Positions 23,001 to 38,152 of a stretch of DNA of 64,000 nt are shown piece after piece. Numbering within the stretch: the first letter of the stretch is position 1; each line of letters starts with the position of its first letter. The notes beneath the pieces are model-generated. The model searched no databases. It was given only the letters and a program-made list of their open reading frames with translations, and was not told where the DNA came from. The stretch is from Trypanosoma brucei (taxonomy: Eukaryota), in NCBI GenBank assembly GCA_000002445.1, contig CH464491.1, positions 2,880,001-2,944,000 of the forward strand, read 5' to 3'. Position numbers and translations under genes: made by a program.

Positions 23001-26000
23001 TTCGTTCTTTTTGTATCCCTCCAGAACGGGCTGTCCTTTACTTCACCGAAACAGCGTTTTGGAGACACAACCACGTCACAAACGGCAAGAGTCCGTTTCG
23101 TGGGAGACCGAAACCCAGAGATTTCACACTTCAGATTTTTTTTTTGAGTGTGAACAAGGGGTAATGGTTTTGTCGGCGGAGGGAAACGCCTCTGGTTTCA
23201 GTATAGGGTTCCCCCACCATCCTTACCGATGGCAAACCGCTGGCAGTTTTTACCCCGTAGGAATGCAGCACGAACCCGCGTCCCCTTAACACACATTCTT
23301 CACCCTGTGCTGCAGCCTGCATGCTCCCTATTCGTCTCTAAGGGTGTCTTCTGGCGACTTTTGTCGACGCATTGTATGGGATATTCCTCGAGGTCACTGG
23401 GAACGTTCCATGGGCGCGGCTTTGATACGCGAGGAGGGGTCGCGGGTGCGACTTGAGTTGTGTTCCCGAGTTGTGTGCAGTACTTAAACTGTCGCGGCGC
23501 CCTCCCACAGGACTCGCCGCGCGTCCGGGCTTGACGGCACTCTCGCGCTACTTCCTTACGAATGGTTGTAGATTGCTGTTGCAGCTGTTATATTCTTGCA
23601 AAGGAAAACAAGCACCAACCGCACCTGTTTTGAAGTTCCTTTTTCAATTCTTCAGAGCGGTTGCTCATGAAAAATAAAATCTCCCTCGTGGGGCTGTGGA
23701 GTCACGCCGTCTCTCTTGCTGAGGTTGTGCAATGTGGAAAGCAGGCTCGATGACTCTTGAAGTCAAATCAGGATGGAAGCACCTGCTCTCAAGGACGACC
23801 GGGTGTTAAGGAAGGCTCGCCTCAGCACTTGGGGTCTCGTTTGAACCGTTGTAGTCGGGCGCATCGTCGTTCCGCCAGAAGTCGGATGCTTGTAAGTTGG
23901 AGGAAGGGCTGTGGACAGGCAACGTGCGCGCGGCACCAATATATATCGATCCGTGTCCACCGATTGCTACTTGGCAAACTTGTTGTACGTGTGTGTGTGG
24001 CAGGAAGGCGAGGGAGGTGTCGCAGCCCCAGAAAAACCTGAAGCATCCTCACGCCTCTCCAAAGTGGGAGTTCACAGTTTCGTTCTCGACTGTTGTCTTG
24101 CCGCCATGATCTTACATTTGATGGGGGACAGAGATTTCAGTGGAACAAACTGCGGGTCTTCTGCGAATGAAGGACGCCTGGGAGCCCGGCTCCACTGCAC
24201 TGCCGCCTTTATGCAGTGGTGCGGTGTCTCGTCGCGGCCCTAAGGGTTGGCAGTTGCGGTGTCTGAGCCCGCTGCAAGGGGGGGGGTCTTGACATTAATA
24301 GCGCAATACTCCTTGGCGATTTGGGCCGCTTGAATGTGACGGGGGTATTCACTGCCTCGTGCTTTCGGGGGAGGCCGGAGCCAAGCGGCGTCCCCGGCCC
24401 GGCAAGCCTTGTGGCGTCCACTAAGATTGAGGTGACTCAAAACGGGATGATGCGCCGTTTTCACTTGAGCCGCCGTCTCTTTTCCCGGGTGGCGTATAAA
24501 CGCGCGCCGACGTACCGTGGAGTATCACGCTAACCGGGATACTGCCGCTGTGGTCCGTGCTTCTAGGTGTATTCCGCACTGATGCAGGGGATGGGTGGGG
24601 ATGAGGGTTGTCTCACATGAAGGAGCGAAGAAAATTAGAAGAATTCAGAGGTCTTCGACAAGCGGGGTTGCACATGGGCGCGGTGCACAAACTATGAGGT
24701 TCCTGCTACGTTACCTGTAGTTTCACACGTTCCGCCATGCGAGCAGTGTTACCATTCGAATGAAGGACGGTGCGGTGTTTGAGGCTCTGTTTACTTTAAA
24801 TACGAATATAAGGACATGAAGGAGAGTGCATTTGTTGCGGAACCTGGTGGAAGGCACCACTGTTTCAACAAAGTGACCAAGCATTTAAAGTTGAGTGTTG
24901 ACCGCATAAAACGTAAAGGCAGGGAGCCGTGCGCCGGGCGGACGTCCATCGTTTCAACTGTAAAGGATGAGTGAGTATACTATTTTGCTTCGATATGCAT
25001 GATTAAAGAAAGTGCTTATTGTGTTGATGTTGCTGTCATGAATGTTCAGGTGGTGTGATGATAGTGATCCACAAAATTTTAATTCATCGCATCCCCATAG
25101 TATTCGGGAGTTCTGGTGAACCGGAGCGTATGGCTAACGCCTTCCCCCTTTTTGGGTGAGTTGATCAAGTCAGTCTTGCGTTTATTTTGCTTAGTTTGCG
25201 GTAGGGAATATGTATTTTCCGGGCACCAGAAGTACTCGGGTGCTTTTAGCGCTTCGTGGCGTATGAGGGTTATTGGAGAAGGGCGGTAACTCTTCTGAAA
25301 TAAATAAGTGGTTGAATGTGTTTAAGTGATGCCTGCCACCACAATTGAAACTCAGCCGATGCGAATCATGTGTGATTTTTGTTTATATGCCTTATGTATT
25401 TTGTACTGATGTGTCTGCGTTTGCTGTACTAAATTTCCCCGCTGATGCTGCACTTGCTGCAGAAGGGGTGGTAGATAGGGCGATGGCTTATGTGATGTTG
25501 CTCCTGAGAGCGGTGGGTCATGATGCGGTTTAAGCCCATTTTGACGGAAAAGAGCGACGGGATTTTCAGTTGGAAAAGTTATGATATTTAATTGTGCATG
25601 TGCTGCATCTCGTGGGAACGGCTCATTCATTATCCTTCGTGGCGTTGTACTGGATGTTTTATCTATGACGGAATGGATAAGGGAAATAAATCATCTGCCT
25701 TTTCCCCCTTTTCGCTTTGCAGCTACAAATCTAGAGGTAGTGCACCTGAAGTGTTGAAATATTGTTTAAAGAGCGGTTTTAGCATAAGTTTGCGTCGAAG
25801 CAATTTGCTTTTGTGGCACCGAGATCTCTTCATCTTATTTTTGGTCCCACGCTCTTTAATAAACATTCGAACTTACAGTTGCTTGAAGAGAGGCAAAAAG
25901 GATGCTGAGAGCAAAACCTATTTACAGACTTGGTACCAATGCTCATAATCACTTATAATATTACCTAACACGCAGGGAAGGAGATGAACTGTGATTATTT

Positions 26001-28511
26001 TGTTTTGCAATGCTGTGCTTTGTGAAGGCAGATGCTTTTCGCTTTCGGTGGCGTCTAAGAAAAGTAATGCAACTGGACAACAGGTATGATTTTGTTCTTT
26101 AATACCCAACGAGTGCTTGCTCGTGTGCTAATGCGTGGTGTCCCGTGATGCTTTCTTAATGTGACCTCAGAGGGGTTGCTGTAGGGAGCAGGGTTTCTCC
26201 TCTTTGCTGGTCCATATCGCACTGTACGCATTGGTTTCAGCTAAGGTGCGTACCTGGAGTAAACAATGCACATCAAAGTGGCTGACGCGGTGCGTGCATA
26301 TATGTGTGTGATGAGGCGGCATCCCTACTGCCTTTGTCCGGAGGTGTTTCCGCGATTCGAATACATGGTCATAATTCTTGGAGGAGGTATGGGAGAGTTT
26401 TTCAAATATTACAAACCCCCATTGCACGTAGAATGTCTGCATATCGTTCTTTTGTAGCAACCGGGGTTCCTTTTTTCTTTTTTTTTTTTGTAAATTTCCC
26501 TGACAGGTCTTGCGTCAGGTTGGGTGGAGACACTGACCCTCCGTTGGACGGGATTTGCCTTCCACCAGCCAAAGGGCGACTCCGTAACCGTTTTGTCGTT
26601 TTTTTTTTTCCAAGAGTGCAATGTTGCACCCTTGTCACCCAGTTTTGTGTGCACTGGAGCGCTCCTTCTTTTGAATGAATAAGCGGCGTACGTCTTGTGA
26701 TTTCTTTGACACAGATGAAAATCACATACCTTAGCTTCTACCATAAACTTCAAGTGGTCTTTTACACTTTCCAACTGTCAGCATTTCCTCTTTTAGTTAT
26801 TACCCGCGTGTCGCACCGTACCGTTACAAAAAAAATAATTGCTGTTTGCTTCAACATCAAGGCATGGTTGTTCGGTTCTTTTATTAGTTACCGAGTGTCA
26901 TCATTGAAAAAACATTAAGTTTTTCATGATGTTTCGTGAGAGAAGGTAGCGTGGCTTATTACTGTGTACGACATGTTTTTTTTTGAGATGGATTGATCTC
27001 ATAGTAAGGGGCACTGTTCCCTGGTTTACGGATGTTATCCCTCCTGAAATATTGTCAGCAACCTGAATTTTTCTTGCGAAGTTATCTCCAGGTGTGTTTC
27101 TGCTGTTGTCATCATTAAAAAAAATTATCCATCGTGAACCCACCGCGCGAATGAAATTACCTCCGGTGGTCATTTTTTTTTTGTACTTCTACCCATTTTC
27201 AGCATTCTATGCGATGGGAGGGCTTACAAACTGAGATGGTACGTTGACAAAATGGATCCAACGAATGTGCTCCTCACGTTTCGTTCAGCGGATATCTTGC
27301 ACGTGTGTTTGTAAAGGTGCACAACCGCATGCCCGTATAGTTAACGTTCACTGACTGCCACGCATCTACATGGCGTTAACAGTGCGCGAACATTGGACTC
27401 CAATATATGCAACTGCATAATAACATGCGTGTTCTTGGTCTTTAAAAGAAAAACTACACTTTTCTGTGCAAGATGTTCTGAGCTGCGGTGTCGGGCGTGG
27501 CCCTTAACTTATTTCTAAAGGGGCATCTCTACCTCCATTTTTTAACCTTAAAAATAACGCGGCCCACCTGCGGCTCCATCGAACAAGCGTTTATTTGTAT
27601 CTGTTTTGCGTTGGAAGACTTCTACTTTAAATATTTTCGGCAAGTGCCATTATTGACTTGACACGTGTTTTTTTGTCCGCGCACTGGGTCACATCCATAC
27701 ATACCTAGGTGGCTGCGTTTTTATGAATGACCATTGTTGTGGTAGTTGCTGACGTGAAAGTGTTGGTAATTGTGGAGGTCGGTATCTGTGTAATATAGAT
27801 GCTGGACGCCGTCGTTGTTATCAAGCATTATATTTCTCTCGTTTTGTTAGTAGCTAAATACCGTTGCGTAGGCCTTACCGAATGTTAAAAATTTTGTTTG
27901 AGTGTATTCAGCGATCCCTCCCTTTACGTTTCCTGTTGTTTTGACATGCTTACCACTGGGTGGTTCGGTGCATCTAGTTGTGTGCTACCTCTGTTCAACC
28001 TTATTGGGATGTATTTTGTACTCTTCGTTCCAGCGCGTGAGGAGCAAGTGGAGAAGGGATTGTAACCGTTCGCTCTCACCAAGGTGGCACAGATTTTGTC
28101 CGGCCAATGTAGTGGGTACGCTAGGGTTTACTGTCTTTTGCACATGTGCGCGGTTTTATTGAGAAACTAAGGGATGCAGACTCGTCAAGTATGTGAATGC
28201 TTTCTTGCAACGCGGGGTGTATTACTGCATTCGTATGGGGTTCCTCTCCACACAGCTTGATGTCTCTAACGTTCTTTTTTGCTTTTGACCCGAAATACCT
28301 GGGTAGCTGTTCTTCCTCTCCAGAGATTTGGGTTAAATAACGAGTTTGGCGGAGATGCGACCATATGCATCCGTACATGGTTCTGTACGTACGCAATGTC
28401 GCTACTGCGTTTAACCAAATAGCATTCACTTGCCCATGCTTACTTTCTTTGCGATGAGAACCACGAAAGCGACCTGTTACTTTTCTATTTAAAAAAAAAA
28501 TATGAAGAGCA

Positions 28512-28904
28512 ATGCCTCACCGCTCCACTGTGAGTAAAAAGAGGTCTAACAGTGTAAGTAGACCGACTGCTGCACAAAAATGCGCTGCACAGCCTCGTCC
28601 AACAGCCACCGCAAGCGAAGGGAGATTCCCAATATACGGAAGAAAGCCAGCTGTCACCGAGCCCCACCAACCGCAGGCAATTTGGAACAACACTTCTACG
28701 CGTGAAGATGTTGGAGGACGTGCATTGTATGATAAAGAACTTGCCCATATTGCACAACGACTACACGAGGAGCTGTGCTCTTTTCGACAGAGAACTCAAC
28801 GGGCGCGGATGCGGGAGTGCCTGGCTTACAGTCGGCTCCGACAAATCCTGACCACCCGACTCAGTGTACGAAATATAGTTGAAGAACAATCAGAGGGACG
28901 GTAG
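28512..28904 (+). CDS. hypothetical small basic protein (130 aa)
   Basis: ORF with an ATG start, preceded by a poly(A)/pyrimidine tract at 28489-28510 at the downstream end of the long ORF-free interval. It is basic and Q/R-rich with no recognisable domain. Confidence 0.25.
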   Translation: MPHRSTVSKKRSNSVSRPTAAQKCAAQPRPTATASEGRFPIYGRKPAVTEPHQPQAIWNNTSTREDVGGRALYDKELAHIAQRLHEELCSFRQRTQRARMRECLAYSRLRQILTTRLSVRNIVEEQSEGR

Positions 28905-29285
28905 ATAATGGAGCAGGTACAAGTGCAAGAACCCACACACAATAACAGCAGCAAAGAACACAATAATCCTTAGGCTAATAAAGTACCAAAGTTAAGCCAT
29001 GAGAACTTGCACTTTTCATTATTAACAATTTTTTAACCTTTCCATTTCTCATATATAAATATACACGTATAAAAAAAAGAAAGAGGAGAGCCAACGACGG
29101 CAGCAGCCGCACCGAACAAAAGACGCCTACAACCAAGCACAATCAAACAATAGACGACAAAATACCGGCATCACCACTAGAGAGTATACTAGTGGAAGCA
29201 GCAGAGTGTGGAGGCCAAAGCACCACCGTTGGATTTCTGTGATTTCGTTAACAGCGTTGATACTAAGCAAACTCGTGCTGCAATC

Positions 29286-32200
29286 ATGTCTGAAATAGCT
29301 CACTCTGCGGTGGGTGACGTGCCGATTGACTCTTTTAAAGCAGACAGTCACAATGGTGGAAAAGATGCATGGGTGTGCACCCGATGTGGTAAGGTGAAGG
29401 ATCTTCGGGGTGATCATCTTCGAGGCAAGATGGAGGTCCGTTCTGATTGTTGGCCCTGTGGAAAGAAGGCGACATTCAAGTTGCAAAGCAGGCTCTCGGA
29501 TGACGGTAGTAATAACAACGTCCCTGCAGCTAGCACTGTCGATGATACGCATCAACCAAAAGGCGTCGGGAACGCAACAATAGTTGGAGGATTTCGTGCT
29601 CCTGTCGTTCCTTCAACCGGTGACGAGCACCAGTTTCTTTTCCCTGCTCCCGTACTCCAGTGCTCAACCCCAAGCTTATCAGCAGACTGCTCCTCTGTAT
29701 GGAAATGCTCTATCTGTGGAAAGGTGAAGCCACTTTCTGGTGATCATTTGCGGGGGAAAACAGAGGTGCGAAGCGATTGCTGGCCTTGTGGCTGCAAGAG
29801 AACGTTTGTGTTGAGTCCTGTTGACGGTGAATACGGATGCTCCGCGTTGCCGAAGGAGGATGCATCGAAGACTATTTCAAAGGCCAGCGAGAACGTTAAG
29901 GAGCAAGCTACCACTGGCGCACAAATACCAGTACAACCCGCAGCAATACCATTTAAGAGTGTATTTGATACACAGAGCAGTGGAGATGCGAAACCACCCG
30001 CAGCAACACCATTTAAGAGTGTATTTGATACACAGAGCAGTGGAGATGCGAAACCACCTGCAGCAACGCCATTTAAGAGTGTGTTTGGTACACAGAGCAG
30101 TGGAGATGCGAAACCACCTGCAGCAACACCATTTAAGAGTGTGTTTGGTACACAGAGCAGTGGAGATGCGAAACCACCCGCAGCAACACCATTTAAGAGT
30201 GTATTTGATACACAGAGCAGTGGAGATGCGAAACCACCTGCAGCAACGCCATTTAAGAGTGTATTTGATACACAGAGCAGTGGAGATGCGAAACCACCTG
30301 CAGCAACGCCATTTAAGAGTGTGTTTGGTACACAGAGCAGTGGAGATGCGAAACCACCCGCAGCAACACCATTTAAGAGTGTATTTGATACACAGAGCAG
30401 TGGAGATGCGAAACCACCCGCAGCAACGCCATTTAAGAGTGTGTTTGGTACACAGAGCAGTGGAGATGCGAAACCACCCGCAGCAACACCATTTAAGAGT
30501 GTATTTGATACACAGAGCAGTGGAGATGCGAAACCACCTGCAGCAACACCATTTAAGAGTGATTCCATTAATGGCTTTTTTATTAAGCAAACTCGTGCTG
30601 GAATCATGTCTGAAATAGCTCACTCTGCGGTGGGTGACGTGCCGATTGACTCTTTTAAAGCAGACAGTCACAATGGTGGAAAAGATGCATGGGTGTGCAC
30701 CCGATGTGGTAAGGTGAAGGATCTTCGGGGTGATCATCTTCGAGGCAAGATGGAGGTCCGTTCTGATTGTTGGCCCTGTGGAAAGAAGGCGACATTCAAG
30801 TTGCAAAGCAGGCTCTCGGATGACGGTAGTAATAACAACGTCCCTGCAGCTAGCACTGTCGATGATACGCATCAACCAAAAGGCGTCGGGAACGCAACAA
30901 TAGTTGGAGGATTTCGTGCTCCTGTCGTTCCTTCAACCGGTGACGAGCACCAGTTTCTTTTCCCTGCTCCCGTACTCCAGTGCTCAACCCCAAGCTTATC
31001 AGCAGACTGCTCCTCTGTATGGAAATGCTCTACCTGTGGAAAGGTGAAGCCACTTTCTGGTGATCATTTGCGGGGGAAAACAGAGGTGCGAAGCGATTGC
31101 TGGCCTTGTGGCTGCAAGAGAACGTTTGTGTTGAGTCCTGTTGACGGTGAATACGGATGCTCCGCGTTGCCGAAGGAGGATGCATCGAAGACTATTTCAA
31201 AGGCCAGCGAGAACGTTAAGGAGCAAGCTACCACTGGCGCACAAATACCAGTACAACCCGCAGCAATACCATTTAAGAGTGTATTTGATACACAGAGCAG
31301 TGGAGATGCGAAACCACCTGCAGCAACACCATTTAAGAGTGTGTTTGGTACACAGAGCAGTGGAGATGCGAAACCACCTGCAGCAACACCATTTAAGAGT
31401 GTGTTTGGTACACAGAGCAGTGGAGATGCGAAACCACCCGCAGCAACACCATTTAAGAGTGTATTTGGTACACAGAGCAGTGGAGATGCGAAACCACCCG
31501 CAGCAACACCATTTAAGAGTGATTCCATTAATGGCTTTTTTATTAAGCAAACTCGTGCTGGAATCATGTCTGAAATAGCTCACTCTGCGGTGGGTGACGT
31601 GCCGATTGACTCTTTTAAAGCAGACAGTCACAATGGTGGAAAAGATGCATGGGTGTGCACCCGATGTGGTAAGGTGAAGGATCTTCGGGGTGATCATCTT
31701 CGAGGCAAGATGGAGGTCCGTTCTGATTGTTGGCCCTGTGGAAAGAAGGCGACATTCAAGTTGCAAAGCAGGCTCTCGGATGACGGTAGTAATAACAACG
31801 TCCCTGCAGCTAGCACTGTCGATGATACGCATCAACCAAAAGGCGTCGGGAACGCAACAATAGTTGGAGGATTTCGTGCTCCTGTCGTTCCTTCAACCGG
31901 TGACGAGCACCAGTTTCTTTTCCCTGCTCCCGTACTCCAGTGCTCAACCCCAAGCTTATCAGCAGACTGCTCCTCTGTATGGAAATGCTCTACCTGTGGA
32001 AAGGTGAAGCCACTTTCTGGTGATCATTTGCGGGGGAAAACAGAGGTGCGAAGCGATTGCTGGCCTTGTGGCTGCAAGAGAACGTTTGTGTTGAGTCCTG
32101 TTGACGGTGAATACGGATGCTCCGCGTTGCCGAAGGAGGATGCATCGAAGACTATTTCAAAGGCCAGCGAGAACGTTAAGGAGCAAGCTACCACTGGCGC

Positions 32201-33605
32201 ACAAATACCAGTACAACCCGCAGCAACACCATTTAAGAGTGTATTTGATACACAGAGCAGTGGAGATGCGAAACCACCTGCAGCAACACCATTTAAGAGT
32301 GTGTTTGGTACACAGAGCAGTGGAGATGCGAAACCACCTGCAGCAACACCATTTAAGAGTGTGTTTGGTACACAGAGCAGTGGAGATGCGAAACCACCTG
32401 CAGCAACACCATTTAAGAGTGTATTTGATACACAGAGCAGTGGAGATGCGAAACCACCTGCAGCAACACCATTTAAGAGTGTATTTGGTACACAGAGCAG
32501 TGGAGATGCGAAACCACCTGCAGCAACACCATTTAAGAGTGTATTTGATACACAGAGCAGTGGAGATGCGAAACCACCTGCAGCAACACCATTTAAGAGT
32601 GTGTTTGGTACACAGAGCAGTGGAGATGCGAAACCACCTGCAGCAACACCATTTAAGAGTGTGTTTGGTACACAGAGCAGTGGAGATGCGAAACCACCTG
32701 CAGCAACACCATTTAAGAGTGTATTTGGTACACAGAGCAGTGGAGATGCGAAACCACCTGCAGCAACACCATTTAAGAGTGTATTTGATACACAGAGCAG
32801 TGGAGATGCGAAACCACCTGCAGCAACACCATTTAAGAGTGTATTTGATACACAGAGCAGTGGAGATGCGAAACCACCTGCAGCAACGCCATTTAAGAGT
32901 GTGTTTGGTACACAGAGCAGTGGAGATGCGAAACCACCTGCAGCAACACCATTTAAGAGTGTGTTTGGTACACAGAGCAGTGGAGATGCGAAACCACCCG
33001 CAGCAACACCATTTAAGAGTGTGTTTGGTACACAGAGCAGTGGAGATGCGAAACCACCCGCAGCAACACCATTTAAGAGTGTATTTGGTACACAGAGCAG
33101 TGGAGATGCGAAACCACCCGCAGCAACACCATTTAAGAGTGTATTTGGTACACAGAGCAGTGGAGATGCGAATTGTCGAGGGGGTGTTGTTTCCATTTGT
33201 TTAGATGGTGAAAGTTCTGTGACTAATTCTGCTTCTTCCAGTTGTCGCTCCACAGTTCAGGCTAATATTTTACATGATAGTGTTGGTGGGGGAGTTGTTT
33301 GTGTGGCTGATGATTTGAGTGGATACCAGAGCAATTCTCTTGATGAGGCTCTGAACGTTACGGGCCTCTCTCCCCTTTTTTCTGCTTTTGAGAGGATGAT
33401 GAATGACGCGAAGGAAAAGGTGTTGTCAGCCTTGAAGGAGGAGTTGAATCAAATGGTTTCCTGTGTTGGTGGCCGTGATTGCTGTAAGTGCGGAAGGGCA
33501 ATCCAAAGTGGTAGGGAAGTAAAGGAGAATTATAGGGGTAGAAATAAGTCCGGTGATAAAATAATGTGGGCTCATTTGGAGAATGCTTTCACTAAACCCT
33601 ATTGA
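29286..33605 (+). CDS. zinc-finger FG-repeat protein, candidate kinetoplastid FG-nucleoporin (TbNup149-like): three ZnF modules, each followed by 20-aa SVF[G/D] repeats
   Basis: The track ORF starts at GTG 29208; the first ATG is at 29286, giving about 1439 aa. Each of three modules has two W-x-C-x2-C-x20-C-x2-C fingers: WVCTRCGKVKDLRGDHLRGKMEVRSDCWPCG and WKCS[I/T]CGKVKPLSGDHLRGKTEVRSDCWPCG. These are followed by 60-bp (20-aa) repeats PFKSVF[G/D]TQSSGDAKPPAAT, then a unique C-terminus. The size and composition are consistent with a ~150-kDa FG-Nup. Confidence 0.75.
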   Translation: MSEIAHSAVGDVPIDSFKADSHNGGKDAWVCTRCGKVKDLRGDHLRGKMEVRSDCWPCGKKATFKLQSRLSDDGSNNNVPAASTVDDTHQPKGVGNATIVGGFRAPVVPSTGDEHQFLFPAPVLQCSTPSLSADCSSVWKCSICGKVKPLSGDHLRGKTEVRSDCWPCGCKRTFVLSPVDGEYGCSALPKEDASKTISKASENVKEQATTGAQIPVQPAAIPFKSVFDTQSSGDAKPPAATPFKSVFDTQSSGDAKPPAATPFKSVFGTQSSGDAKPPAATPFKSVFGTQSSGDAKPPAATPFKSVFDTQSSGDAKPPAATPFKSVFDTQSSGDAKPPAATPFKSVFGTQSSGDAKPPAATPFKSVFDTQSSGDAKPPAATPFKSVFGTQSSGDAKPPAATPFKSVFDTQSSGDAKPPAATPFKSDSINGFFIKQTRAGIMSEIAHSAVGDVPIDSFKADSHNGGKDAWVCTRCGKVKDLRGDHLRGKMEVRSDCWPCGKKATFKLQSRLSDDGSNNNVPAASTVDDTHQPKGVGNATIVGGFRAPVVPSTGDEHQFLFPAPVLQCSTPSLSADCSSVWKCSTCGKVKPLSGDHLRGKTEVRSDCWPCGCKRTFVLSPVDGEYGCSALPKEDASKTISKASENVKEQATTGAQIPVQPAAIPFKSVFDTQSSGDAKPPAATPFKSVFGTQSSGDAKPPAATPFKSVFGTQSSGDAKPPAATPFKSVFGTQSSGDAKPPAATPFKSDSINGFFIKQTRAGIMSEIAHSAVGDVPIDSFKADSHNGGKDAWVCTRCGKVKDLRGDHLRGKMEVRSDCWPCGKKATFKLQSRLSDDGSNNNVPAASTVDDTHQPKGVGNATIVGGFRAPVVPSTGDEHQFLFPAPVLQCSTPSLSADCSSVWKCSTCGKVKPLSGDHLRGKTEVRSDCWPCGCKRTFVLSPVDGEYGCSALPKEDASKTISKASENVKEQATTGAQIPVQPAATPFKSVFDTQSSGDAKPPAATPFKSVFGTQSSGDAKPPAATPFKSVFGTQSSGDAKPPAATPFKSVFDTQSSGDAKPPAATPFKSVFGTQSSGDAKPPAATPFKSVFDTQSSGDAKPPAATPFKSVFGTQSSGDAKPPAATPFKSVFGTQSSGDAKPPAATPFKSVFGTQSSGDAKPPAATPFKSVFDTQSSGDAKPPAATPFKSVFDTQSSGDAKPPAATPFKSVFGTQSSGDAKPPAATPFKSVFGTQSSGDAKPPAATPFKSVFGTQSSGDAKPPAATPFKSVFGTQSSGDAKPPAATPFKSVFGTQSSGDANCRGGVVSICLDGESSVTNSASSSCRSTVQANILHDSVGGGVVCVADDLSGYQSNSLDEALNVTGLSPLFSAFERMMNDAKEKVLSALKEELNQMVSCVGGRDCCKCGRAIQSGREVKENYRGRNKSGDKIMWAHLENAFTKPY
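29938..30565 (+). repeat. 60-bp tandem repeat array 1 (about 10.5 copies), in-frame coding
   Basis: The unit ccgcagcaacaccatttaagagtgtatttg[a/g]tacacagagcagtggagatgcgaaaccac recurs with period 60. Copies differ only at a few silent or D/G positions. Confidence 0.9.
31258..31525 (+). repeat. 60-bp tandem repeat array 2 (about 4.5 copies)
   Basis: This is the same 60-bp unit as array 1. Confidence 0.9.
32218..33170 (+). repeat. 60-bp tandem repeat array 3 (about 16 copies)
   Basis: This is the same 60-bp unit; the last copy degenerates into the unique C-terminal sequence at about 33170. Confidence 0.9.
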
Positions 33606-33757
33606 ATTTATTGAAGTGTTACTTTGATGCTAATCACCTTCTGTTGCAAGCGCTGGTGATATAAATTGTTAGTGGGTTTGTTGCGTGTTGACCTTTCTGC
33701 TCCTTCCAAATAATCACTTACTCTACCTGCAGTTCGTGTAACAGATAAAAGGTGTAG

Positions 33758-36700
33758 ATGTCCCTGGACCCCCGTTCCTGTGACGCCATTTGTGAAGAAC
33801 TTCATGCAGAATCGTGCATCTGTGACGGAGCTGGCATTCTCAATTTATGTCGACAGGTAAAAGAACTTCGAGTTGGAATTCGCCGTCTGCTTACTGAAGA
33901 CATACCGACTCTTGGAGACATCATCACAGAATTTCAAGAGCCACACCTGAGGGAGTTTAGGGACTTCCACCGTGGTGCCAGAAGAGATAATGTTGTCAGA
34001 ACTCCAACCGATATAGTTTTTGCCACAACATCACTCCTGCGTTGTTGCAACGAACTGAGTTCCAATGTTACGAGAGGATTCAACCGCCTAGCCAATAAGG
34101 AAACTGTTAAACTTAATACCCATGCAATCGGTTACGCACCTATATTTTCCAGAGAGAAATATAGCAGTTATCCACCCGCAACTGTGGAGACAGAGAAAAA
34201 CGAAAACAGAACAAAAGATAAGAAATTAAACAGTAATCATTGCGCAGCGCCACAGGTAAAAGCGGGTGGCGAGAAAGAGGGAAAAGCTAACCCGCAAGCA
34301 AGACACGAAACAAGTAGATCACTGGTGTCACAAAAAGAAATTTTGACATCTCGGCTAACTACTGTAGACAAGTATCCTGCATTTGGTCAAGCAATTACTG
34401 AAGATAAGCCTCTCGCATTTGGTCAAGGTGCGACTGCAGATAAGCCTCCCGCATTTGGTCAAGGAGTGACTGCAGATAAGCCTCCCGCATTTGGTCAAGG
34501 TGCGGCTGCAGGCACAACTCCCGCATTTGGTCAAGGAGTGACTGCAGGCACAACTCCCGCATTTGGTCAAGGAGTGACTGCAGATAAGCCTCCCGCATTT
34601 GGTCAAGGTGCGGCTGCAGATAAGCCTCCCGCATTTGGTCAAGGAGTGAATGCAGATAAGCCTCCCGCATTTGGTCAAGGAGTGAATGCAGATAAGCCTC
34701 CCGCATTTGGTCAAGGAGTGACTGCAGATAAGCCTCCCGCATTTGGTCAAGGAGTGACTGCAGATAAGCCTCCCGCATTTGGTCAAGGTGCGGCTGCAGA
34801 TAAGCCTCTCGCATTTGGTCAAGGTGCGACTGCAGATAAGCCTCCCGCATTTGGTCAAGGAGTGACTGCAGATAAGCCTCCCGCATTTGGTCAAGGTGCG
34901 GCTGCAGATAAGCCTCCCGCATTTGGTCAAGGAGTGACTGCAGGCACAACTCCCGCATTTGGTCAAGGAGTGACTGCAGATAAGCCTCCCGCATTTGGTC
35001 AAGGAGTGAATGCAGATAAGCCTCCCGCATTTGGTCAAGGAGTGAATGCAGGCACAACTCCCGCATTTGGTCAAGGAGTGACTGCAGGCACAACTCCCGC
35101 ATTTGGTCAAGGAGTGACTGCAGGCACAACTCCCGCATTTGGTCAAGGTGCGGCTGCAGATAAGCCTCCCGCATTTGGTCAAGGAGTGAATGCAGATAAG
35201 CCTCCCGCATTTGGTCAAGGAGTGACTGCAGGCACAACTCCCGCATTTGGTCAAGGAGTGAATGCAGATAAGCCTCCCGCATTTGGTCAAGGAGTGACTG
35301 CAGGCACAACTCCCGCATTTGGTCAAGGAGCGGCTGCAGATAAGACTCCCGCATTTGGTCAAGGAGTGACTGCAGATAAACCTCCCGCATTTGGTCAAGG
35401 AGTGACTGCAGGCACAACTCCCGCATTTGGTCAAGGAGTGACTGCAGGCACAACTCCCGCATTTGGTCAAGGAGTGACTGCAGATAAGCCTCCCGCATTT
35501 GGTCAAGGAGTGAATGCAGATAAGCCTCCCGCATTTGGTCAAGGAGTGACTGCAGGCACAACTCCCGCATTTGGTCAAGGAGCGGCTGCAGGCACAACTC
35601 CCGCATTTGGTCAAGGAGTGAATGCAGATAAGCCTCCCGCATTTGGTCAAGGAGTGACTGCAGATAAGCCTCCTGCATTTGGTCAAGGTGCGGCTGCAGG
35701 CACAACTCCCGCATTTGGTCAAGGAGTGAATGCAGATAAGCCTCCCGCATTTGGTCAAGGAGCGGCTGCAGGCACAACTCCCGCATTTGGTCAAGGAGTG
35801 AATGCAGATAAGCCTCCCGCATTTGGTCAAGGAGCGGCTGCAGATAAGCCTCCTGCATTTGGTCAAGGTGCGGCTGCAGATAAGCCTCCTGCATTTGGTC
35901 AAGGTGCGGCTGCAGGCACAACTCCCGCATTTGGTCAAGGAGTGAATGCAGATAAGCCTCCTGCATTTGGTCAAGGTGCGGCTGCAGGCACAACTCCCGC
36001 ATTTGGTCAAGGAGTGACTGCAGATAAGACTCCCGCATTTGGTCAAGGTGTGGCTGCAGATAAGCCTCCCGCATTTGGTCAAGGTGTGGCTGCAGATAAG
36101 CCTCCCGCATTTGGTCAAGGTGCGGCTGCGAATAAAGCTTCTGTATTTGGTCAAGGAGTGACTGCAGGCACAACTCCCGCATTTGGTCAAGGAGTGGCTG
36201 CAGATAAGCCTCCCGCATTTGGTCAAGGTGTGGCTGCAGATAAGCCTCCCGCATTTGGTCAAGGTGCGGCTGCGAATAAAGCTTCAGCATTTGGTCAAGG
36301 AGTGACTGCAGGCACAACTCCCGCATTTGGTCAAGGAGTGGCTGCAGATAAGCCTCCCGTATTTGGTCAAGGTGTGGCTGCAGATAAGCCTCCCGCATTT
36401 GGTCAAGGTGCGGCTGCGAATAAAGCTTCTGTATTTGGTCAAGGAGTGACTGCAGGCACAACTCCCGCATTTGGTCAAGGAGTGGCTGCAGATAAGCCTC
36501 CCGTATTTGGTCAAGGAGTGACTGCAGATAAGCCTCCCGCATTTGGTCAAGGAGTGACTGCAGATAAGCCTCCCGCATTTGGTCAAGGAGTGGCTGCAGA
36601 TAAGCCTCCCGTATTTGGTCAAGGAGTGGCTGCAGATAAGCCTCCCGCATTTGGTCAAGGTGCGGCTGCGAATAAAGCTTCAGCATTTGGTCAAGGAGTG

Positions 36701-38152
36701 ACTGCAGGCACAACTCCCGCATTTGGTCAAGGAGTGGCTGCAGATAAGCCTCCCGCATTTGGTCAAGGTGCGGCTGCAGGCACAACTCCCGCATTTGGTC
36801 AAGGAGTGACTGCAGGCACAACTCCCGCATTTGGTCAAGGAGTGACTGCAGGCACAACTCCCGCATTTGGTCAAGGTGCGGCTGCGAATAAAGCTTCAGT
36901 ATTTGGTCAAGGAGTGACTGCAGGCACAACTCCCGCATTTGGTCAAGGAGTAACTGCAGGCACAACTCCCGCATTTGGTCAAGGTGCGACTGCAGGCACA
37001 ACTCCCGCATTTGGTCAAGGAGTGACTGCAGGCACAACTCCCGCATTTGGTCAAGGAGTAACTGCAGGCACAACTCCCGCATTTGGTCAAGGTGCTGCTG
37101 CGAATAAAGCTTCAGTATTTGGTCAAGGTGTGGCTGCAGATAAGCCTCCCGCATTTGGTCAAGGTGTGGCTGCAGATAAGCCTCCCGCATTTGGTCAAGG
37201 TGCTGCTGCGAATAAAGCTTCAGTATTTGGTCAAGGTGCTGCTGCGAATAAAGCTTCAGTATTTGGTCAAGGAGTGGCTGCAGATAAGCCTCCCGCATTT
37301 GGTCAAGGTGCTGCTGCGAATAAAGCTTCAGTATTTGGTCAAGGTGCGGCTGCAGGCACAACTCCCGCATTTGGTCAAGGTGCGGCTGCAGATAAGCCTC
37401 CTGCATTTGGTCAAGGTGCGGCTGCAGGCACAACTCCCGCATTTGGTCAAGGAGTGACTGCAGGCACAACTCCCGCATTTGGTCAAGGAGCTGCTGCGAA
37501 TAAAGCTTCAGTATTTGGTCAAGGTGCGGCTGCAGGCACAACTCCCGCATTTGGTCAAGGTGCGGCTGCAGGCACAACTCCCGCATTTGGTCAAGGTGCG
37601 GCTGCAGGCACAACGCCCGCATTTGGTCAAGGTGCGGCTGCAGGCACAACTCCCGCATTTGGTCAAGGTGCGGCTGCAGGCACAACTCCCGCATTTGGTC
37701 AAGGAGTGACTGCAGGCACAACTCCCGCATTTGGTCAAGGTGCGGCTGCAGGCACAACTCCCGCATTTGGTCAAGGTGCGGCTGCGAATAAAGCTTCAGT
37801 ATTTGGTCAAGGAGTGACTGCAGGCACAACTCCCGCATTTGGTCAAGGTGCTGGTGGGTGTGTATCCAACTCTGTCTTTGGGACGACTCCGGCAAGCGGT
37901 GGATGTGAATTGGGTACAATATGTGGATTCGGCTCTGACCCGAGTGGAGTGAAGTCGTTGCGTGTTAACCTTGGTGCTAATTGCGGTGTAGGGACTCCTT
38001 CTGTTTTTGGTGTGCCCGGTCATGTTTCGAGTCCGCAAGTTGCTCCCTTTGGTTCCGCTGCTACGTCTCATGTTTTTCAGTCTTCTTCTTTTTCTAGTAT
38101 TGCCGGCAATTATAAGGCCACACCTGATTTTAAAAGTGTCTTTTCGCAGTAG
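33758..38152 (+). CDS. FG-repeat protein with about 90 tandem 13-aa PAFGQG repeats, candidate kinetoplastid FG-nucleoporin (TbNup140-like)
   Basis: 1464 aa with an ATG start. A unique ~200-aa N-terminal domain is followed by 39-bp repeats encoding AFGQG[V/A][T/N/A]A[D/G][K/T][P/T]P. Three subtypes occur: ..ADKPP, ..AGTTP and ..AANKAS[V/A]. A unique G/S/V-rich C-terminus ends ..DFKSVFSQ. It lies immediately downstream of the zinc-finger FG gene. Confidence 0.75.
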   Translation: MSLDPRSCDAICEELHAESCICDGAGILNLCRQVKELRVGIRRLLTEDIPTLGDIITEFQEPHLREFRDFHRGARRDNVVRTPTDIVFATTSLLRCCNELSSNVTRGFNRLANKETVKLNTHAIGYAPIFSREKYSSYPPATVETEKNENRTKDKKLNSNHCAAPQVKAGGEKEGKANPQARHETSRSLVSQKEILTSRLTTVDKYPAFGQAITEDKPLAFGQGATADKPPAFGQGVTADKPPAFGQGAAAGTTPAFGQGVTAGTTPAFGQGVTADKPPAFGQGAAADKPPAFGQGVNADKPPAFGQGVNADKPPAFGQGVTADKPPAFGQGVTADKPPAFGQGAAADKPLAFGQGATADKPPAFGQGVTADKPPAFGQGAAADKPPAFGQGVTAGTTPAFGQGVTADKPPAFGQGVNADKPPAFGQGVNAGTTPAFGQGVTAGTTPAFGQGVTAGTTPAFGQGAAADKPPAFGQGVNADKPPAFGQGVTAGTTPAFGQGVNADKPPAFGQGVTAGTTPAFGQGAAADKTPAFGQGVTADKPPAFGQGVTAGTTPAFGQGVTAGTTPAFGQGVTADKPPAFGQGVNADKPPAFGQGVTAGTTPAFGQGAAAGTTPAFGQGVNADKPPAFGQGVTADKPPAFGQGAAAGTTPAFGQGVNADKPPAFGQGAAAGTTPAFGQGVNADKPPAFGQGAAADKPPAFGQGAAADKPPAFGQGAAAGTTPAFGQGVNADKPPAFGQGAAAGTTPAFGQGVTADKTPAFGQGVAADKPPAFGQGVAADKPPAFGQGAAANKASVFGQGVTAGTTPAFGQGVAADKPPAFGQGVAADKPPAFGQGAAANKASAFGQGVTAGTTPAFGQGVAADKPPVFGQGVAADKPPAFGQGAAANKASVFGQGVTAGTTPAFGQGVAADKPPVFGQGVTADKPPAFGQGVTADKPPAFGQGVAADKPPVFGQGVAADKPPAFGQGAAANKASAFGQGVTAGTTPAFGQGVAADKPPAFGQGAAAGTTPAFGQGVTAGTTPAFGQGVTAGTTPAFGQGAAANKASVFGQGVTAGTTPAFGQGVTAGTTPAFGQGATAGTTPAFGQGVTAGTTPAFGQGVTAGTTPAFGQGAAANKASVFGQGVAADKPPAFGQGVAADKPPAFGQGAAANKASVFGQGAAANKASVFGQGVAADKPPAFGQGAAANKASVFGQGAAAGTTPAFGQGAAADKPPAFGQGAAAGTTPAFGQGVTAGTTPAFGQGAAANKASVFGQGAAAGTTPAFGQGAAAGTTPAFGQGAAAGTTPAFGQGAAAGTTPAFGQGAAAGTTPAFGQGVTAGTTPAFGQGAAAGTTPAFGQGAAANKASVFGQGVTAGTTPAFGQGAGGCVSNSVFGTTPASGGCELGTICGFGSDPSGVKSLRVNLGANCGVGTPSVFGVPGHVSSPQVAPFGSAATSHVFQSSSFSSIAGNYKATPDFKSVFSQ
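34374..37850 (+). repeat. 39-bp tandem repeat array (about 89 copies), in-frame coding
   Basis: The unit gcatttggtcaaggagtgactgcagataagcctccc and its variants ggcacaactccc and gcgaataaagcttcagt recur with period 39 throughout. Confidence 0.9.

What the first reader, a model, noticed from the sequence alone, without database searches (positions are those of the whole stretch)
29265..33605. Zinc-finger FG gene built from three near-identical ZnF+repeat modules (10.5, 4.5 and 16 copies of a 60-bp repeat)
Three ~650-bp zinc-finger segments are almost base-identical; I could see a single I/T codon difference. Each is followed by a different number of the same 60-bp repeat, joined by the same linker sequence. 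Divergence this low means either very recent duplication or gene conversion within the gene, or an assembly that has expanded or collapsed one real module. The finger itself, W-x-C-x2-C-x20-C-x2-C with a conserved GDHLRGK loop, resembles a RanBP2/Nup153 zinc finger but has a much longer inter-pair loop of 20 residues rather than 10. That would make it a divergent, kinetoplastid-specific zinc-ribbon variant in a putative nuclear-basket-type FG-Nup.
Basis: partly seen in the sequence, partly recalled or inferred. Interest (0 to 1): 0.6.

Follow-up and report, generated by a model that had tools for sequence, protein, structure and literature searches.

The report
Trypanosome nucleoporin NUP149, three-module gene
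This is the already described Trypanosoma brucei nuclear-pore gene NUP149, whose three nearly identical zinc-finger-plus-repeat modules are real and are kept alike by recombination, but its fingers are not of the Ran-binding (RanBP2/Nup153) type and published work places the protein on the cytoplasmic side of the pore.

Summary
The + strand gene 29286-33605 has three modules. Each holds a 650-nt segment with two C-x2-C-x20-C-x2-C fingers, followed by 10.4, 4.4 or 15.9 copies of a 60-bp repeat. The two linkers are identical, and the finger segments differ at one nucleotide (29713, I/T).

The protein is 100% identical to T. b. brucei TREU927 XP_829173.1 and matches the published TbNup149. Its three near-identical repeat domains and putative zinc fingers were published in 2016 (PMC4758718, S7 Fig). 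So the feature is already known.

What I add:
- Orthologues in Leishmania and Porcisia, and one unnamed relative, have modules 96-100% identical within a protein but 41-89% identical between species. This points to concerted evolution rather than an assembly artefact.
- The inter-module linker derives from the 47 nt upstream of the start codon.
- The finger is a Pfam-less three-stranded zinc ribbon. Its nearest solved fold is ribosomal protein bL33. It is also found in diplonemids.

The RanBP2/Nup153 reading fails the Pfam, profile-profile and fold tests; only the first W-x-C-x2-C knuckle aligns. The nuclear-basket reading is contradicted by published localisation to the cytoplasmic face (PMC11825100). 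What the fingers bind, Ran or RNA, is still open.

The parts
29286..33605 (+). Coding sequence of TbNUP149 (1439 aa plus stop), counted from the first in-frame ATG
   Evidence: The product is 149.2 kDa with 18 FG. It is identical to P0001 = XP_829173.1/Q383H0 of T. b. brucei TREU927 and matches the sequence in S7 Fig of PMC4758718.
29239..29285 (+). The 47 nt upstream of the start codon, homologous to the two inter-module linkers
   Evidence: 17 of 25 bases match over 29239-29263 (P about 1e-4), then 21 of 22 over 29264-29285. Further upstream the match is at chance level, 12 of 39.
29286..29935 (+). Module 1 finger segment (fingers A1 and B1 plus the disordered spacer)
   Evidence: Differs from modules 2 and 3 at one nucleotide, 29713.
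29370..29459 (+). Zinc ribbon A1 (WVCTRCGKVKDLRGDHLRGKMEVRSDCWPC)
   Evidence: Regex match. AlphaFold2 with a 58-sequence alignment gives pLDDT 85 and three strands.
29589..29645 (+). Conserved inter-finger motif GFRAPVVPSTGDEHQFLFP
   Evidence: Conserved as [GV]F[RK]xPx[VI]PSExxE in most trypanosomatid modules that span fingers A to B.
29700..29789 (+). Zinc ribbon B1 (WKCSICGKVKPLSGDHLRGKTEVRSDCWPC), carrying the Ile variant
29936..30561 (+). 60-bp (20-aa) repeat array 1: 10 full units plus a partial unit
   Evidence: Tandem Repeats Finder gives 10.4 copies. Unit types are abcdbefgfb.
30559..30605 (+). Linker 1 (encodes SDSINGFFIKQTRAGI), derived from the 5' leader
30606..31255 (+). Module 2 finger segment (fingers at 30690-30779 and 31020-31109)
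   Evidence: Identical to module 3.
31256..31521 (+). 60-bp repeat array 2: 4 full units plus a partial unit
   Evidence: Tandem Repeats Finder gives 4.4 copies. Unit types are hidj.
31519..31565 (+). Linker 2, identical to linker 1
31566..32215 (+). Module 3 finger segment (fingers at 31650-31739 and 31980-32069)
32216..33185 (+). 60-bp repeat array 3: 16 units, the last one degenerate
   Evidence: Tandem Repeats Finder gives 15.9 copies. Unit types are biibkbiikbbcddjl.
33186..33602 (+). Unique C-terminal domain ending in ...AHLENAFTKPY
   Evidence: The tail motif RHLxxAFxK is conserved in the Leishmaniinae and Phytomonas orthologues. A short coiled coil has been suggested there in PMC11825100.
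33758..38152 (+). Neighbouring gene TbNUP140 (context, partner in the NUP76 complex)
   Evidence: The product is 140.4 kDa. A 36-bp repeat runs for 96.9 copies. Adjacency and the short 152-nt spacer are published in PMC2742445.

Best explanation
The region is the Trypanosoma brucei TREU927 chromosome 11 gene for the FG-nucleoporin NUP149.

**Architecture.** The gene is a genuine three-module gene. Each module has a pair of zinc ribbons joined by a disordered spacer that carries a conserved short motif. An array of 20-aa PFKSVF(G/D) repeats follows. After the third module comes one unique C-terminal domain.

**Origin of the modules (shown in the sequence).** The modules arose by tandem intragenic duplication of a unit that began 47 nt upstream of the start codon. 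That leader is now read through as the linker SDSINGFFIKQTRAGI, followed by an internal Met.

**Why the modules stay alike (shown by comparison, mechanism inferred).** They are kept almost base-identical by concerted evolution, meaning unequal crossing-over and gene conversion between modules. The same process changes repeat numbers.

**The fingers.** They are classical three-stranded Cys4 zinc ribbons of a family restricted to kinetoplastids and diplonemids. No Pfam model covers them. They are not RanBP2-type fingers.

**Function.** From published work, the protein sits on the cytoplasmic face of the pore with NUP76 and NUP140 and co-purifies with the mRNA export receptor Mex67. I infer that the six basic zinc ribbons, interleaved with FG-like repeats, form a multivalent docking platform for the Ran-dependent Mex67-mRNP export complex. 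Ran is the ligand I think somewhat more likely, at about 0.4. RNA is the main alternative, at about 0.3.
For: **Identity**
- The protein is 100% identical to XP_829173.1/Q383H0, encoded on a 5.26-Mb contig.
- It matches the published sequence, mass and FG positions.

**Architecture**
- Established.
- The three near-identical repeat domains with putative zinc fingers are published (PMC4758718 text and S7 Fig).

**Duplication unit**
- The linker is homologous to positions -47 to -1 of copy 1. Identity steps from 68% to about 100% at 29264.

**Concerted evolution**
- Within-protein identity of the finger-pair modules is 0.99-1.0 in T. brucei, 1.0 in L. enriettii, in two L. donovani assemblies and in L. 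mexicana, 0.99 in P0004 and 0.96 in Porcisia.
- Identity between species is 0.41-0.89. L. donovani against L. mexicana is 0.89.

**Family**
- 60 hits in 1.84 billion representatives.
- W, four Cys and one Lys are invariant, and the loop is 20 residues in nearly all members.

**Fold**
- AlphaFold2 gives pLDDT 85.
- The finger core carries 8-9 Lys+Arg against 2-4 Asp+Glu in 36 residues.

**Localisation and partners (from PMC4758718 and PMC11825100)**
- NUP149 is cytoplasmic-side only.
- It is part of the NUP76 complex.
- It is captured with Mex67 at high stringency.
Against: - No reads or other T. brucei strains could be examined, so the exact copy numbers 10.4, 4.4 and 15.9 rest on one assembly.
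- Module number differs among species: one pair in Novymonas and Angomonas, three identical fingers in Bodo. Some of the within-species identity could therefore come from independent recent amplifications, or from collapsed short-read assemblies, rather than continuing conversion.
- Nothing here tests what the fingers bind. Ran-TurboID labelling is proximity, not binding.
Confidence: 0.8

Rival explanations
1. Assembly artefact: one real module was expanded, or more modules were collapsed, when the repeats were assembled.
For: - Modules 2 and 3 are identical over about 700 nt. Such repeats are hard to assemble.
- Two L. donovani assemblies differ by 55 aa in the third array.
- No reads were available, and no other assembly encoding this exact protein was found.
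Against: - The three arrays have different, non-periodic orders of unit variants: abcdbefgfb, hidj and biibkbiikbbcddjl. Module 1 also carries private differences.
- Two to three modules recur in independently assembled genomes of L. enriettii, L. donovani (two assemblies with the same spacing for arrays 1 and 2), L. mexicana and Porcisia.
- The protein was identified and tagged as the 149-kDa TbNup149, and Northern and Western data are reported (PMC2742445).
Confidence: 0.06
2. Very recent, lineage-specific triplication in T. brucei with no continuing homogenisation. On this view the near-identity simply reflects young age.
For: - Modules are virtually identical at the DNA level, so age and conversion cannot be separated within this one sequence.
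- Module number varies among species.
Against: - The same pattern appears in at least five other proteins from other species: modules identical within a protein and diverged between species. This includes L. donovani against L. mexicana at 89%. Independent recent triplications would have to have occurred in each lineage.
- Identity steps from 68% to about 100% at 29264 inside the homologous leader/linker. This looks like the edge of a conversion tract laid over an older duplication.
Confidence: 0.12
3. The fingers are divergent RanBP2/Nup153-type Ran-binding zinc fingers with an expanded loop, and the protein is a Nup153-like basket nucleoporin.
For: - Both finger types share a W-x-C-x2-C first knuckle. 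hhalign aligns these 12 columns.
- UniRef labels the L. mexicana orthologue 'RanBP2-type domain-containing protein'.
- NUP149 is strongly labelled by Ran-TurboID (PMC11825100).
Against: - No PF00641 hit for the T. brucei protein or for six orthologues or relatives. Only 2 of 58 family fingers score, at E >= 0.016.
- The profile search against PDB gives ZRANB2 at E = 2.7, below the rubredoxin knuckles.
- The invariant Asn of the RanBP2 type is replaced by an invariant Lys. The loop is 20 residues, not 10.
- The predicted fold matches bL33-type ribbons, not RanBP2 or NZF fingers.
- The literature finds no similarity to the NUP153/NUP358 fingers and places the protein at the cytoplasmic side.
Confidence: 0.04
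4. The zinc ribbons bind RNA (mRNA or mRNP) directly at the cytoplasmic face, standing in for the missing Dbp5/Gle1 remodelling platform rather than binding Ran.
For: - The finger core is strongly basic and its Lys/Arg positions are conserved.
- The nearest solved folds are rRNA-binding ribosomal zinc ribbons (bL33, eL40, mL100).
- NUP149 co-purifies with Mex67, and NUP76 depletion blocks mRNA export (PMC4758718 and PMC11825100).
Against: - Zinc ribbons are generic scaffolds, so fold similarity says little about the ligand.
- No RNA-binding data exist.
- The Ran-TurboID signal points elsewhere.
Confidence: 0.3

Closest known systems
TbNup149 / NUP149 (Tb11.01.2880; XP_829173.1; UniProt Q383H0) of Trypanosoma brucei
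   Same: The protein sequence is identical. The neighbouring gene is the same, NUP140. The mass, the FG count and the three repeat domains with six putative zinc fingers match those published in PMC2742445, PMC4758718 and PMC11825100.
   Different: Nothing differs: this is that gene. Three points are not stated in the papers I read. They are the quantified concerted evolution across species, the 5'-leader origin of the linker, and the bL33-like fold assignment with its diplonemid relatives.
RanBP2-type zinc finger (Pfam PF00641; the fingers of Nup153, Nup358/RanBP2 and ZRANB2)
   Same: Both are Cys4 zinc-binding modules that start with W-x-C-x2-C. Both occur in tandem copies in an FG nucleoporin. 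Nup358 is also on the cytoplasmic face.
   Different: - The loop is 20 residues instead of 10.
- The invariant Asn is replaced by Lys.
- A third strand and a conserved VRSDCWPC second knuckle are present.
- There is no HMM, profile or fold match beyond the first knuckle.
Classical zinc ribbons, e.g. ribosomal protein bL33
   Different: Sequence identity is only 16-23%. There is no sequence-level relationship and no ribosomal context. The signature K-x-K-D-L-x-G-x-H-L-x-G-K is conserved in the NUP149 family and gives no sequence-level match to any solved zinc ribbon.
Concerted evolution of intragenic or tandem repeats (a general phenomenon, e.g. in repeat-rich surface and FG proteins)
   Same: Paralogous modules are more alike within a genome than orthologous modules are between genomes, and copy number varies.
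   Different: Here the homogenised unit is large, 960-1320 nt. It contains folded domains as well as a nested 60-bp repeat array.

Membership tests
TbNUP149 orthologue group | Sequence identity to the described protein | tested here: met
   100% identity over 1439 aa to P0001 = XP_829173.1/Q383H0. The sequence matches that printed in S7 Fig of PMC4758718.
TbNUP149 orthologue group | Lies immediately upstream of NUP140 with a very short spacer | tested here: met
   The 140.4-kDa PAFGQG-repeat ORF starts 152 nt after the stop codon. This is as published in PMC2742445.
FG nucleoporin | FG repeats in low-complexity, disordered sequence | tested here: met
   18 VFGT motifs fall in 30 units of 20 aa. 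Outside the fingers the AlphaFold2 pLDDT is below 50.
FG nucleoporin | Physical residence in the nuclear pore complex | not testable with these tools
   Published: proteomics and tagging in PMC2742445, affinity capture in PMC4758718, and expansion microscopy in PMC11825100.
RanBP2-type zinc finger (PF00641 / PROSITE PS01358) | Spacing W-x-C-x(2,4)-C-x3-N-x6-C-x2-C with an invariant Asn. The pattern is recalled from PROSITE. The spacing and the Asn are confirmed on 19 solved fingers. | tested here: not met
   The spacing here is W-x-C-x2-C-x20-C-x2-C. The position of the Asn holds an invariant Lys.
RanBP2-type zinc finger (PF00641 / PROSITE PS01358) | Match to the family HMM at or above the gathering score | tested here: not met
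   No PF00641 hit at E <= 1 for the window protein or for six orthologues or relatives. Only 2 of 58 single fingers hit, with best E 0.016.
RanBP2-type zinc finger (PF00641 / PROSITE PS01358) | Profile-profile similarity over the whole finger | tested here: not met
   hhalign of A2 against A3 aligns 12 columns, the first knuckle only, at 45% probability.
RanBP2-type zinc finger (PF00641 / PROSITE PS01358) | Fold of about 30 residues made of two beta-hairpins around the zinc | tested here: not met
RanBP2-type zinc finger (PF00641 / PROSITE PS01358) | Binds Ran (the Nup153/Nup358 class) or ssRNA (the ZRANB2 class) | not testable with these tools
   Only proximity labelling by Ran-TurboID is published (PMC11825100).
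Nuclear-basket nucleoporin (Nup153-like) | Localisation to the nucleoplasmic face of the pore | not testable with these tools
   Published data contradict it. NUP149 lies 137 +/- 18 nm from the basket marker NUP110 and is found only on the cytoplasmic side (PMC11825100).
Classical zinc ribbon fold | Two Cys-x2-Cys knuckles on a three-stranded antiparallel sheet | tested here: met
Concerted evolution of repeats | Paralogous units more similar within a species than orthologous units between species | tested here: met
   Within-protein identity is 0.96-1.00. Identity between species is 0.41-0.89.

The most novel reading that the evidence does not exclude
The NUP149 finger may define an uncatalogued zinc-ribbon family with the consensus W-R-C-x2-C-x-K-x-K-D-L-x-G-x-H-L-x-G-K-x2-V-R-S-D-C-W-P-C. 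It has no Pfam model and is shared by kinetoplastids and diplonemids. On this reading it is the ligand-binding element, for Ran or for RNA, of a Dbp5-independent, Ran-driven mRNA export platform on the cytoplasmic face of the pore. Recombination would hold its multivalency (two to seven fingers per protein) constant in sequence while varying it in number. If so, euglenozoans would have arrived independently at a Nup358-like arrangement, tandem zinc fingers on the cytoplasmic filaments, using an unrelated fold.
Probability: 0.3. Interest if true: 0.55.

Novelty: already known. Interest (0 to 1): 0.22.

Why it matters
The gene and its three-module, six-finger architecture are already in the literature, so the finding itself adds nothing new.

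The checks do sharpen three points of use to people working on the trypanosome pore:
- The modules evolve in concert across trypanosomatids. Copy number is therefore a fluid character, and strain-to-strain length differences are to be expected.
- The fingers belong to a conserved family with no Pfam model that reaches back to diplonemids. NUP149 has been described as trypanosome-unique, so this extends its known range.
- The fingers are classical zinc ribbons, not RanBP2-type. Any Ran binding would therefore be convergent.

What the fingers bind is the real open question. It bears on how trypanosomes export mRNA without Dbp5 and Gle1.

Tried and rejected
- **Word-indexed homologue search.** The search for homologous proteins with one module returned nothing, although the exhaustive representative search later found 60 relatives.
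- **Other assemblies.** The look-up of encoding contigs found no other assembly encoding exactly this protein. Strain-level copy number could therefore not be examined.
- **Whole-module structure.** Single-sequence AlphaFold2 of the 216-aa module was poor, with mean pLDDT 49, and I did not use it for fold searching.
- **AFDB fold search.** The afdb50 library was unavailable.
- **Sequence search of PDB.** phmmer of the module against PDB gave nothing. The profile search gave only short knuckle matches to rubredoxin and eL43.
- **Weak Pfam hits.** zf-UBP, zf-CHY, HalOD2 and DUF7130 all score below their cutoffs. I treat them as generic Cys-knuckle noise.
- **RNA families.** Rfam found none in the window.
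- **Antisense and out-of-frame ORFs.** The long ORFs over the repeats, such as 29744-30607 on the - strand and 32024-33253 on the - strand, are by-products of the repeat periodicity and not genes.
- **Possible seventh finger.** The C-terminal CCKCG cluster is rejected as a finger, because the Cys residues are not conserved in orthologues.
- **Discarded alignment.** I discarded A1 because I had mistyped flank residues in two rows. A2 replaces it.
Full report
**1. The observation**

The + strand carries an ORF from 29208 to 33605, and its first in-frame ATG is at 29286. Tandem Repeats Finder reports three arrays of the same 60-bp unit:
- 29936-30561, 10.4 copies
- 31256-31521, 4.4 copies
- 32216-33172, 15.9 copies

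The segments that precede the arrays repeat at offsets of exactly 1320 and 960 nt. A base-by-base comparison gives the following:
- From 29264 onward, module 1 differs from modules 2 and 3 at only two positions in the finger segment.
- One is 29281 C/G. It lies upstream of the ATG in copy 1.
- The finger segments of modules 2 and 3 are identical, and so are the two linkers.

Six fingers match W-x-C-x2-C-x20-C-x2-C with GDHLRGK in the loop. The observation, including its coordinates and copy numbers, is confirmed.

**2. What the gene is**

From the first ATG the product is 1439 aa and 149.2 kDa. It has 18 FG dipeptides at positions 267-387 and 1007-1287, plus three at 687-727. These values match the published TbNup149: Tb11.01.2880, 149.1 kDa, VFGT at 267-388 and 1007-1288 (PMC2742445), and 18 FGs (PMC4758718).

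The exhaustive search of 1.84 billion representative proteins returned a 100% identical 1439-aa protein. Its sources name it XP_829173.1 / Q383H0 of T. brucei brucei TREU927, on a 5.26-Mb contig. The next ORF (33758-38152, 140.4 kDa, 96.9 copies of a 36-bp PAFGQG repeat) is TbNup140, 152 nt downstream. PMC2742445 describes this adjacency. Every non-repeat ORF of at least 250 aa in the window is on the + strand.

**3. Already published**

Obado et al. [quoted passage not shown] Their S7 Fig prints the protein, the alignment of the three repeats and the nucleotide comparison (PMC4758718). [quoted passage not shown] A 2025 study gives further detail (PMC11825100):
- It describes six zinc fingers, each predicted as three beta strands with four Cys around a zinc.
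- It calls them unrelated to the NUP153/NUP358 fingers (S10 Fig).
- It places NUP76, NUP140 and NUP149 exclusively on the cytoplasmic side of the pore.

The finding is therefore a correct rediscovery from raw sequence.

**4. Why the modules are so alike**

The representative search found 59 further relatives. Source names identify them as coming from these organisms:
- Leishmania: L. enriettii, L. donovani (two assemblies), L. mexicana
- other trypanosomatids: Porcisia, Lotmaria, Novymonas, Angomonas, Leptomonas, Phytomonas
- Trypanosoma: T. cruzi, T. theileri, T. rangeli, T. conorhini
- other kinetoplastids: Bodo saltans, Perkinsela
- diplonemids: Diplonema papillatum, Flectonema neradi

I extracted the finger-pair module from every protein that has more than one and compared them.

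| Comparison | Identity |
|---|---|
| Within T. brucei | 0.99-1.00 |
| Within L. enriettii, L. donovani (both assemblies), L. mexicana | 1.00 |
| Within P0004 | 0.99 |
| Within Porcisia | 0.96 |
| Between species, overall | 0.41-0.89 |
| L. donovani against L. mexicana | 0.89 |
| L. donovani against L. enriettii | 0.66 |
| T. brucei against any Leishmania | 0.42-0.43 |

Paralogous modules that are identical within each genome but diverged between genomes are the signature of concerted evolution.

The window holds a second hint. The linker between modules is homologous to the 47 nt just upstream of the start codon of copy 1. Identity is 17/25 over 29239-29263 and then essentially 100% from 29264. 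Further upstream it is at chance level. Two things follow:
- The duplicated unit began in the 5' leader and carried the start codon with it. Each internal module still begins with Met.
- The step from about 68% to 100% looks like the edge of a homogenised tract laid over an older duplication.

The two junctions are identical. The third module therefore arose by duplication of a whole module, not by a second independent breakpoint.

**5. Is it an assembly artefact?**

I could not examine reads, and no other assembly encoding exactly this protein is on record. Three points argue against an artefact:
- The three arrays have distinct, non-periodic orders of unit variants: abcdbefgfb, hidj and biibkbiikbbcddjl. 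These are built from 12 nucleotide types that vary at only five positions.
- Multi-module architecture recurs in independently assembled genomes. The two L. donovani assemblies have the same spacing for two arrays and differ by 55 aa in the third.
- The protein has been tagged, blotted and purified as a protein of about 149 kDa (PMC2742445, PMC4758718).

The module count is probably right. The exact repeat numbers may vary between strains or be slightly off.

**6. What kind of finger it is**

*Sequence tests*
- Pfam gives no RanBP2 (PF00641) hit for the window protein at E <= 1. It gives none for six orthologues or relatives either.
- Of 58 non-redundant fingers scanned singly, two touch PF00641, with best E 0.016. 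More of them touch unrelated Cys-knuckle models.
- A profile of the 58 fingers searched against all PDB sequences finds only 13-15-residue knuckle matches to rubredoxins (best E 4e-4) and eL43. ZRANB2 comes at E 2.7.
- I collected 19 solved RanBP2-type fingers from Nup153, human and Xenopus Nup358, ZRANB2, TAF15 and FUS. Their sequences are as printed by the PDB search.
- I compared the two profiles with hhalign. Only the 12 columns of the first knuckle align, at 45% probability, and the invariant Asn of the RanBP2 type faces an invariant Lys.

*Structure tests*
- AlphaFold2 with the 58-sequence alignment gives a confident model, pLDDT 85, with three strands.
- Foldseek has no significant hit, but its top structural matches are again mitoribosomal mL100 and bL33.

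*The family signature*

The family consensus is W-R-C-x2-C-x-K-x-K-D-L-x-G-x-H-L-x-G-K-x2-V-R-S-D-C-W-P-C-A-K-K-x-T-F. The invariant residues are W, the four Cys and one Lys. The loop is 20 residues in almost every member. The core is strongly basic, with 8-9 K+R against 2-4 D+E.

*Conclusion*

This is a classical zinc ribbon of a family restricted to kinetoplastids and diplonemids and not covered by Pfam. It is not a RanBP2-type finger. One outside label disagrees: UniRef calls the L. mexicana orthologue 'RanBP2-type domain-containing protein'. I could not reproduce any such match.

**7. How it most likely works**

*Shown here*
- The architecture.
- The origin of the linker.
- The concerted-evolution pattern.
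- The fold class, which rests on a predicted model.

*Taken from the literature*
- NUP149 is on the cytoplasmic face.
- It belongs to the NUP76 complex.
- It is captured with Mex67 at high stringency.
- It stays at the pore when NUP76 is depleted.
- It is strongly labelled by Ran-TurboID.

*Inferred*

The six basic ribbons alternate with FG-like repeats and a conserved inter-finger motif. Together they would form a multivalent docking platform for the Ran-dependent Mex67-mRNP export complex. Trypanosomes lack Dbp5 and Gle1. I put Ran as the ligand at about 0.4 and RNA at about 0.3. Neither can be tested with these tools.

**8. Verdict**

The identification as TbNup149 and the gene-conversion option are right. 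The RanBP2/Nup153, nuclear-basket and kinetoplastid-specific parts are not supported. Novelty: already known. Interest is low for the finding itself. The open question of what the fingers bind keeps a moderate upside.

Noticed in passing
window 29239-29285 versus 30559-30605 and 31519-31565: The inter-module linker (SDSINGFFIKQTRAGI) is homologous to the 47 nt upstream of the annotated start codon. Each internal module keeps the ancestral ATG. Identity steps from about 68% to about 100% at 29264. This suggests a duplication unit that included the 5' leader, with the edge of a later conversion tract at that point.
   Followed up: yes
window 29589-29645 (and +1320, +2280): A short motif between fingers A and B, GFRAPVVPSTGDEHQFLFP, is conserved as [GV]F[RK]xPx[VI]PSExxE in most trypanosomatid orthologues, although the rest of the spacer is not conserved. 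It may be a docking motif. I did not see it mentioned in the papers I read.
   Followed up: partly
window 29946-33185: - Only 18 of the 30 full 20-aa units carry FG. The other 12 read FD (GGT versus GAT).
- The 60-bp unit varies at just five nucleotide positions.
- Every FD unit has the GTA valine codon. GTG occurs only in FG units, in 14 of 18.
- The orthologous repeats in Leishmania are also 20 aa long (PFKSAFG).
   Followed up: partly
P0033, P0039, P0041, P0043, P0034, P0056 (sources): Some distant relatives come from diplonemids (Flectonema neradi, Diplonema papillatum). Others come from unnamed ENA contigs of 0.43-0.74 Mb. They carry variant fingers, with loops of 20-22 residues and a second knuckle of C-x2-C or C-x5-C. 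These are interleaved with other FG-like repeats (NPFG, GGFFDQKP). Some also have an N-terminal ERRYDxxGxLYTxEDF motif. NUP149 has been described as trypanosome-unique, so these may be pore proteins of a wider euglenozoan family.
   Followed up: partly
P0005 (L. mexicana E9B0C5): UniRef names this orthologue 'RanBP2-type domain-containing protein'. Pfam gives no PF00641 hit for it. The label probably comes from a permissive automatic profile match to the first knuckle.
   Followed up: partly
P0003 versus P0061 (L. donovani); P0008 versus P0062 (Lotmaria passim): The two L. donovani assemblies give different protein lengths (1960 and 1994 aa). The spacing of two arrays is the same, the third array differs by 55 aa, and one protein has an extra upstream finger. 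The two Lotmaria passim assemblies also differ in length (753 and 780 aa). The cause could be real copy-number polymorphism, or differences in assembly or annotation.
   Followed up: partly
window 33606-33757 and 33758-38152: NUP140 starts only 152 nt after the NUP149 stop codon. It consists almost entirely of a 36-bp repeat in 96.9 copies at 85% matches. [quoted passage not shown]
   Followed up: partly
window 20730-28510: A stretch of about 7.8 kb upstream of the small ORF at 28512-28904 has no ORF longer than 145 aa on either strand. This is unusual within what otherwise looks like a dense one-strand gene array. It could be a long UTR or intergenic region, or a degenerate element.
   Followed up: no
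window 29744-30607 (-), 29877-30875 (-), 32024-33253 (-), 34395-37919 (-): Long antisense and out-of-frame ORFs (up to 1174 aa) overlie the repeat arrays of both nucleoporin genes. They are periodic by-products of stop-free repeat units, not evidence of genes.
   Followed up: yes
window 33480-33530 (C-terminal CCKCG cluster): The T. brucei C-terminal domain has a small Cys cluster (RDCCKCGRAIQSG) that could be mistaken for a seventh finger. In orthologues the aligned stretch reads LLFEVRQAISQG with no Cys, so it is not a conserved metal site. The extreme tail, RHLxxAFxK, is conserved.
   Followed up: yes
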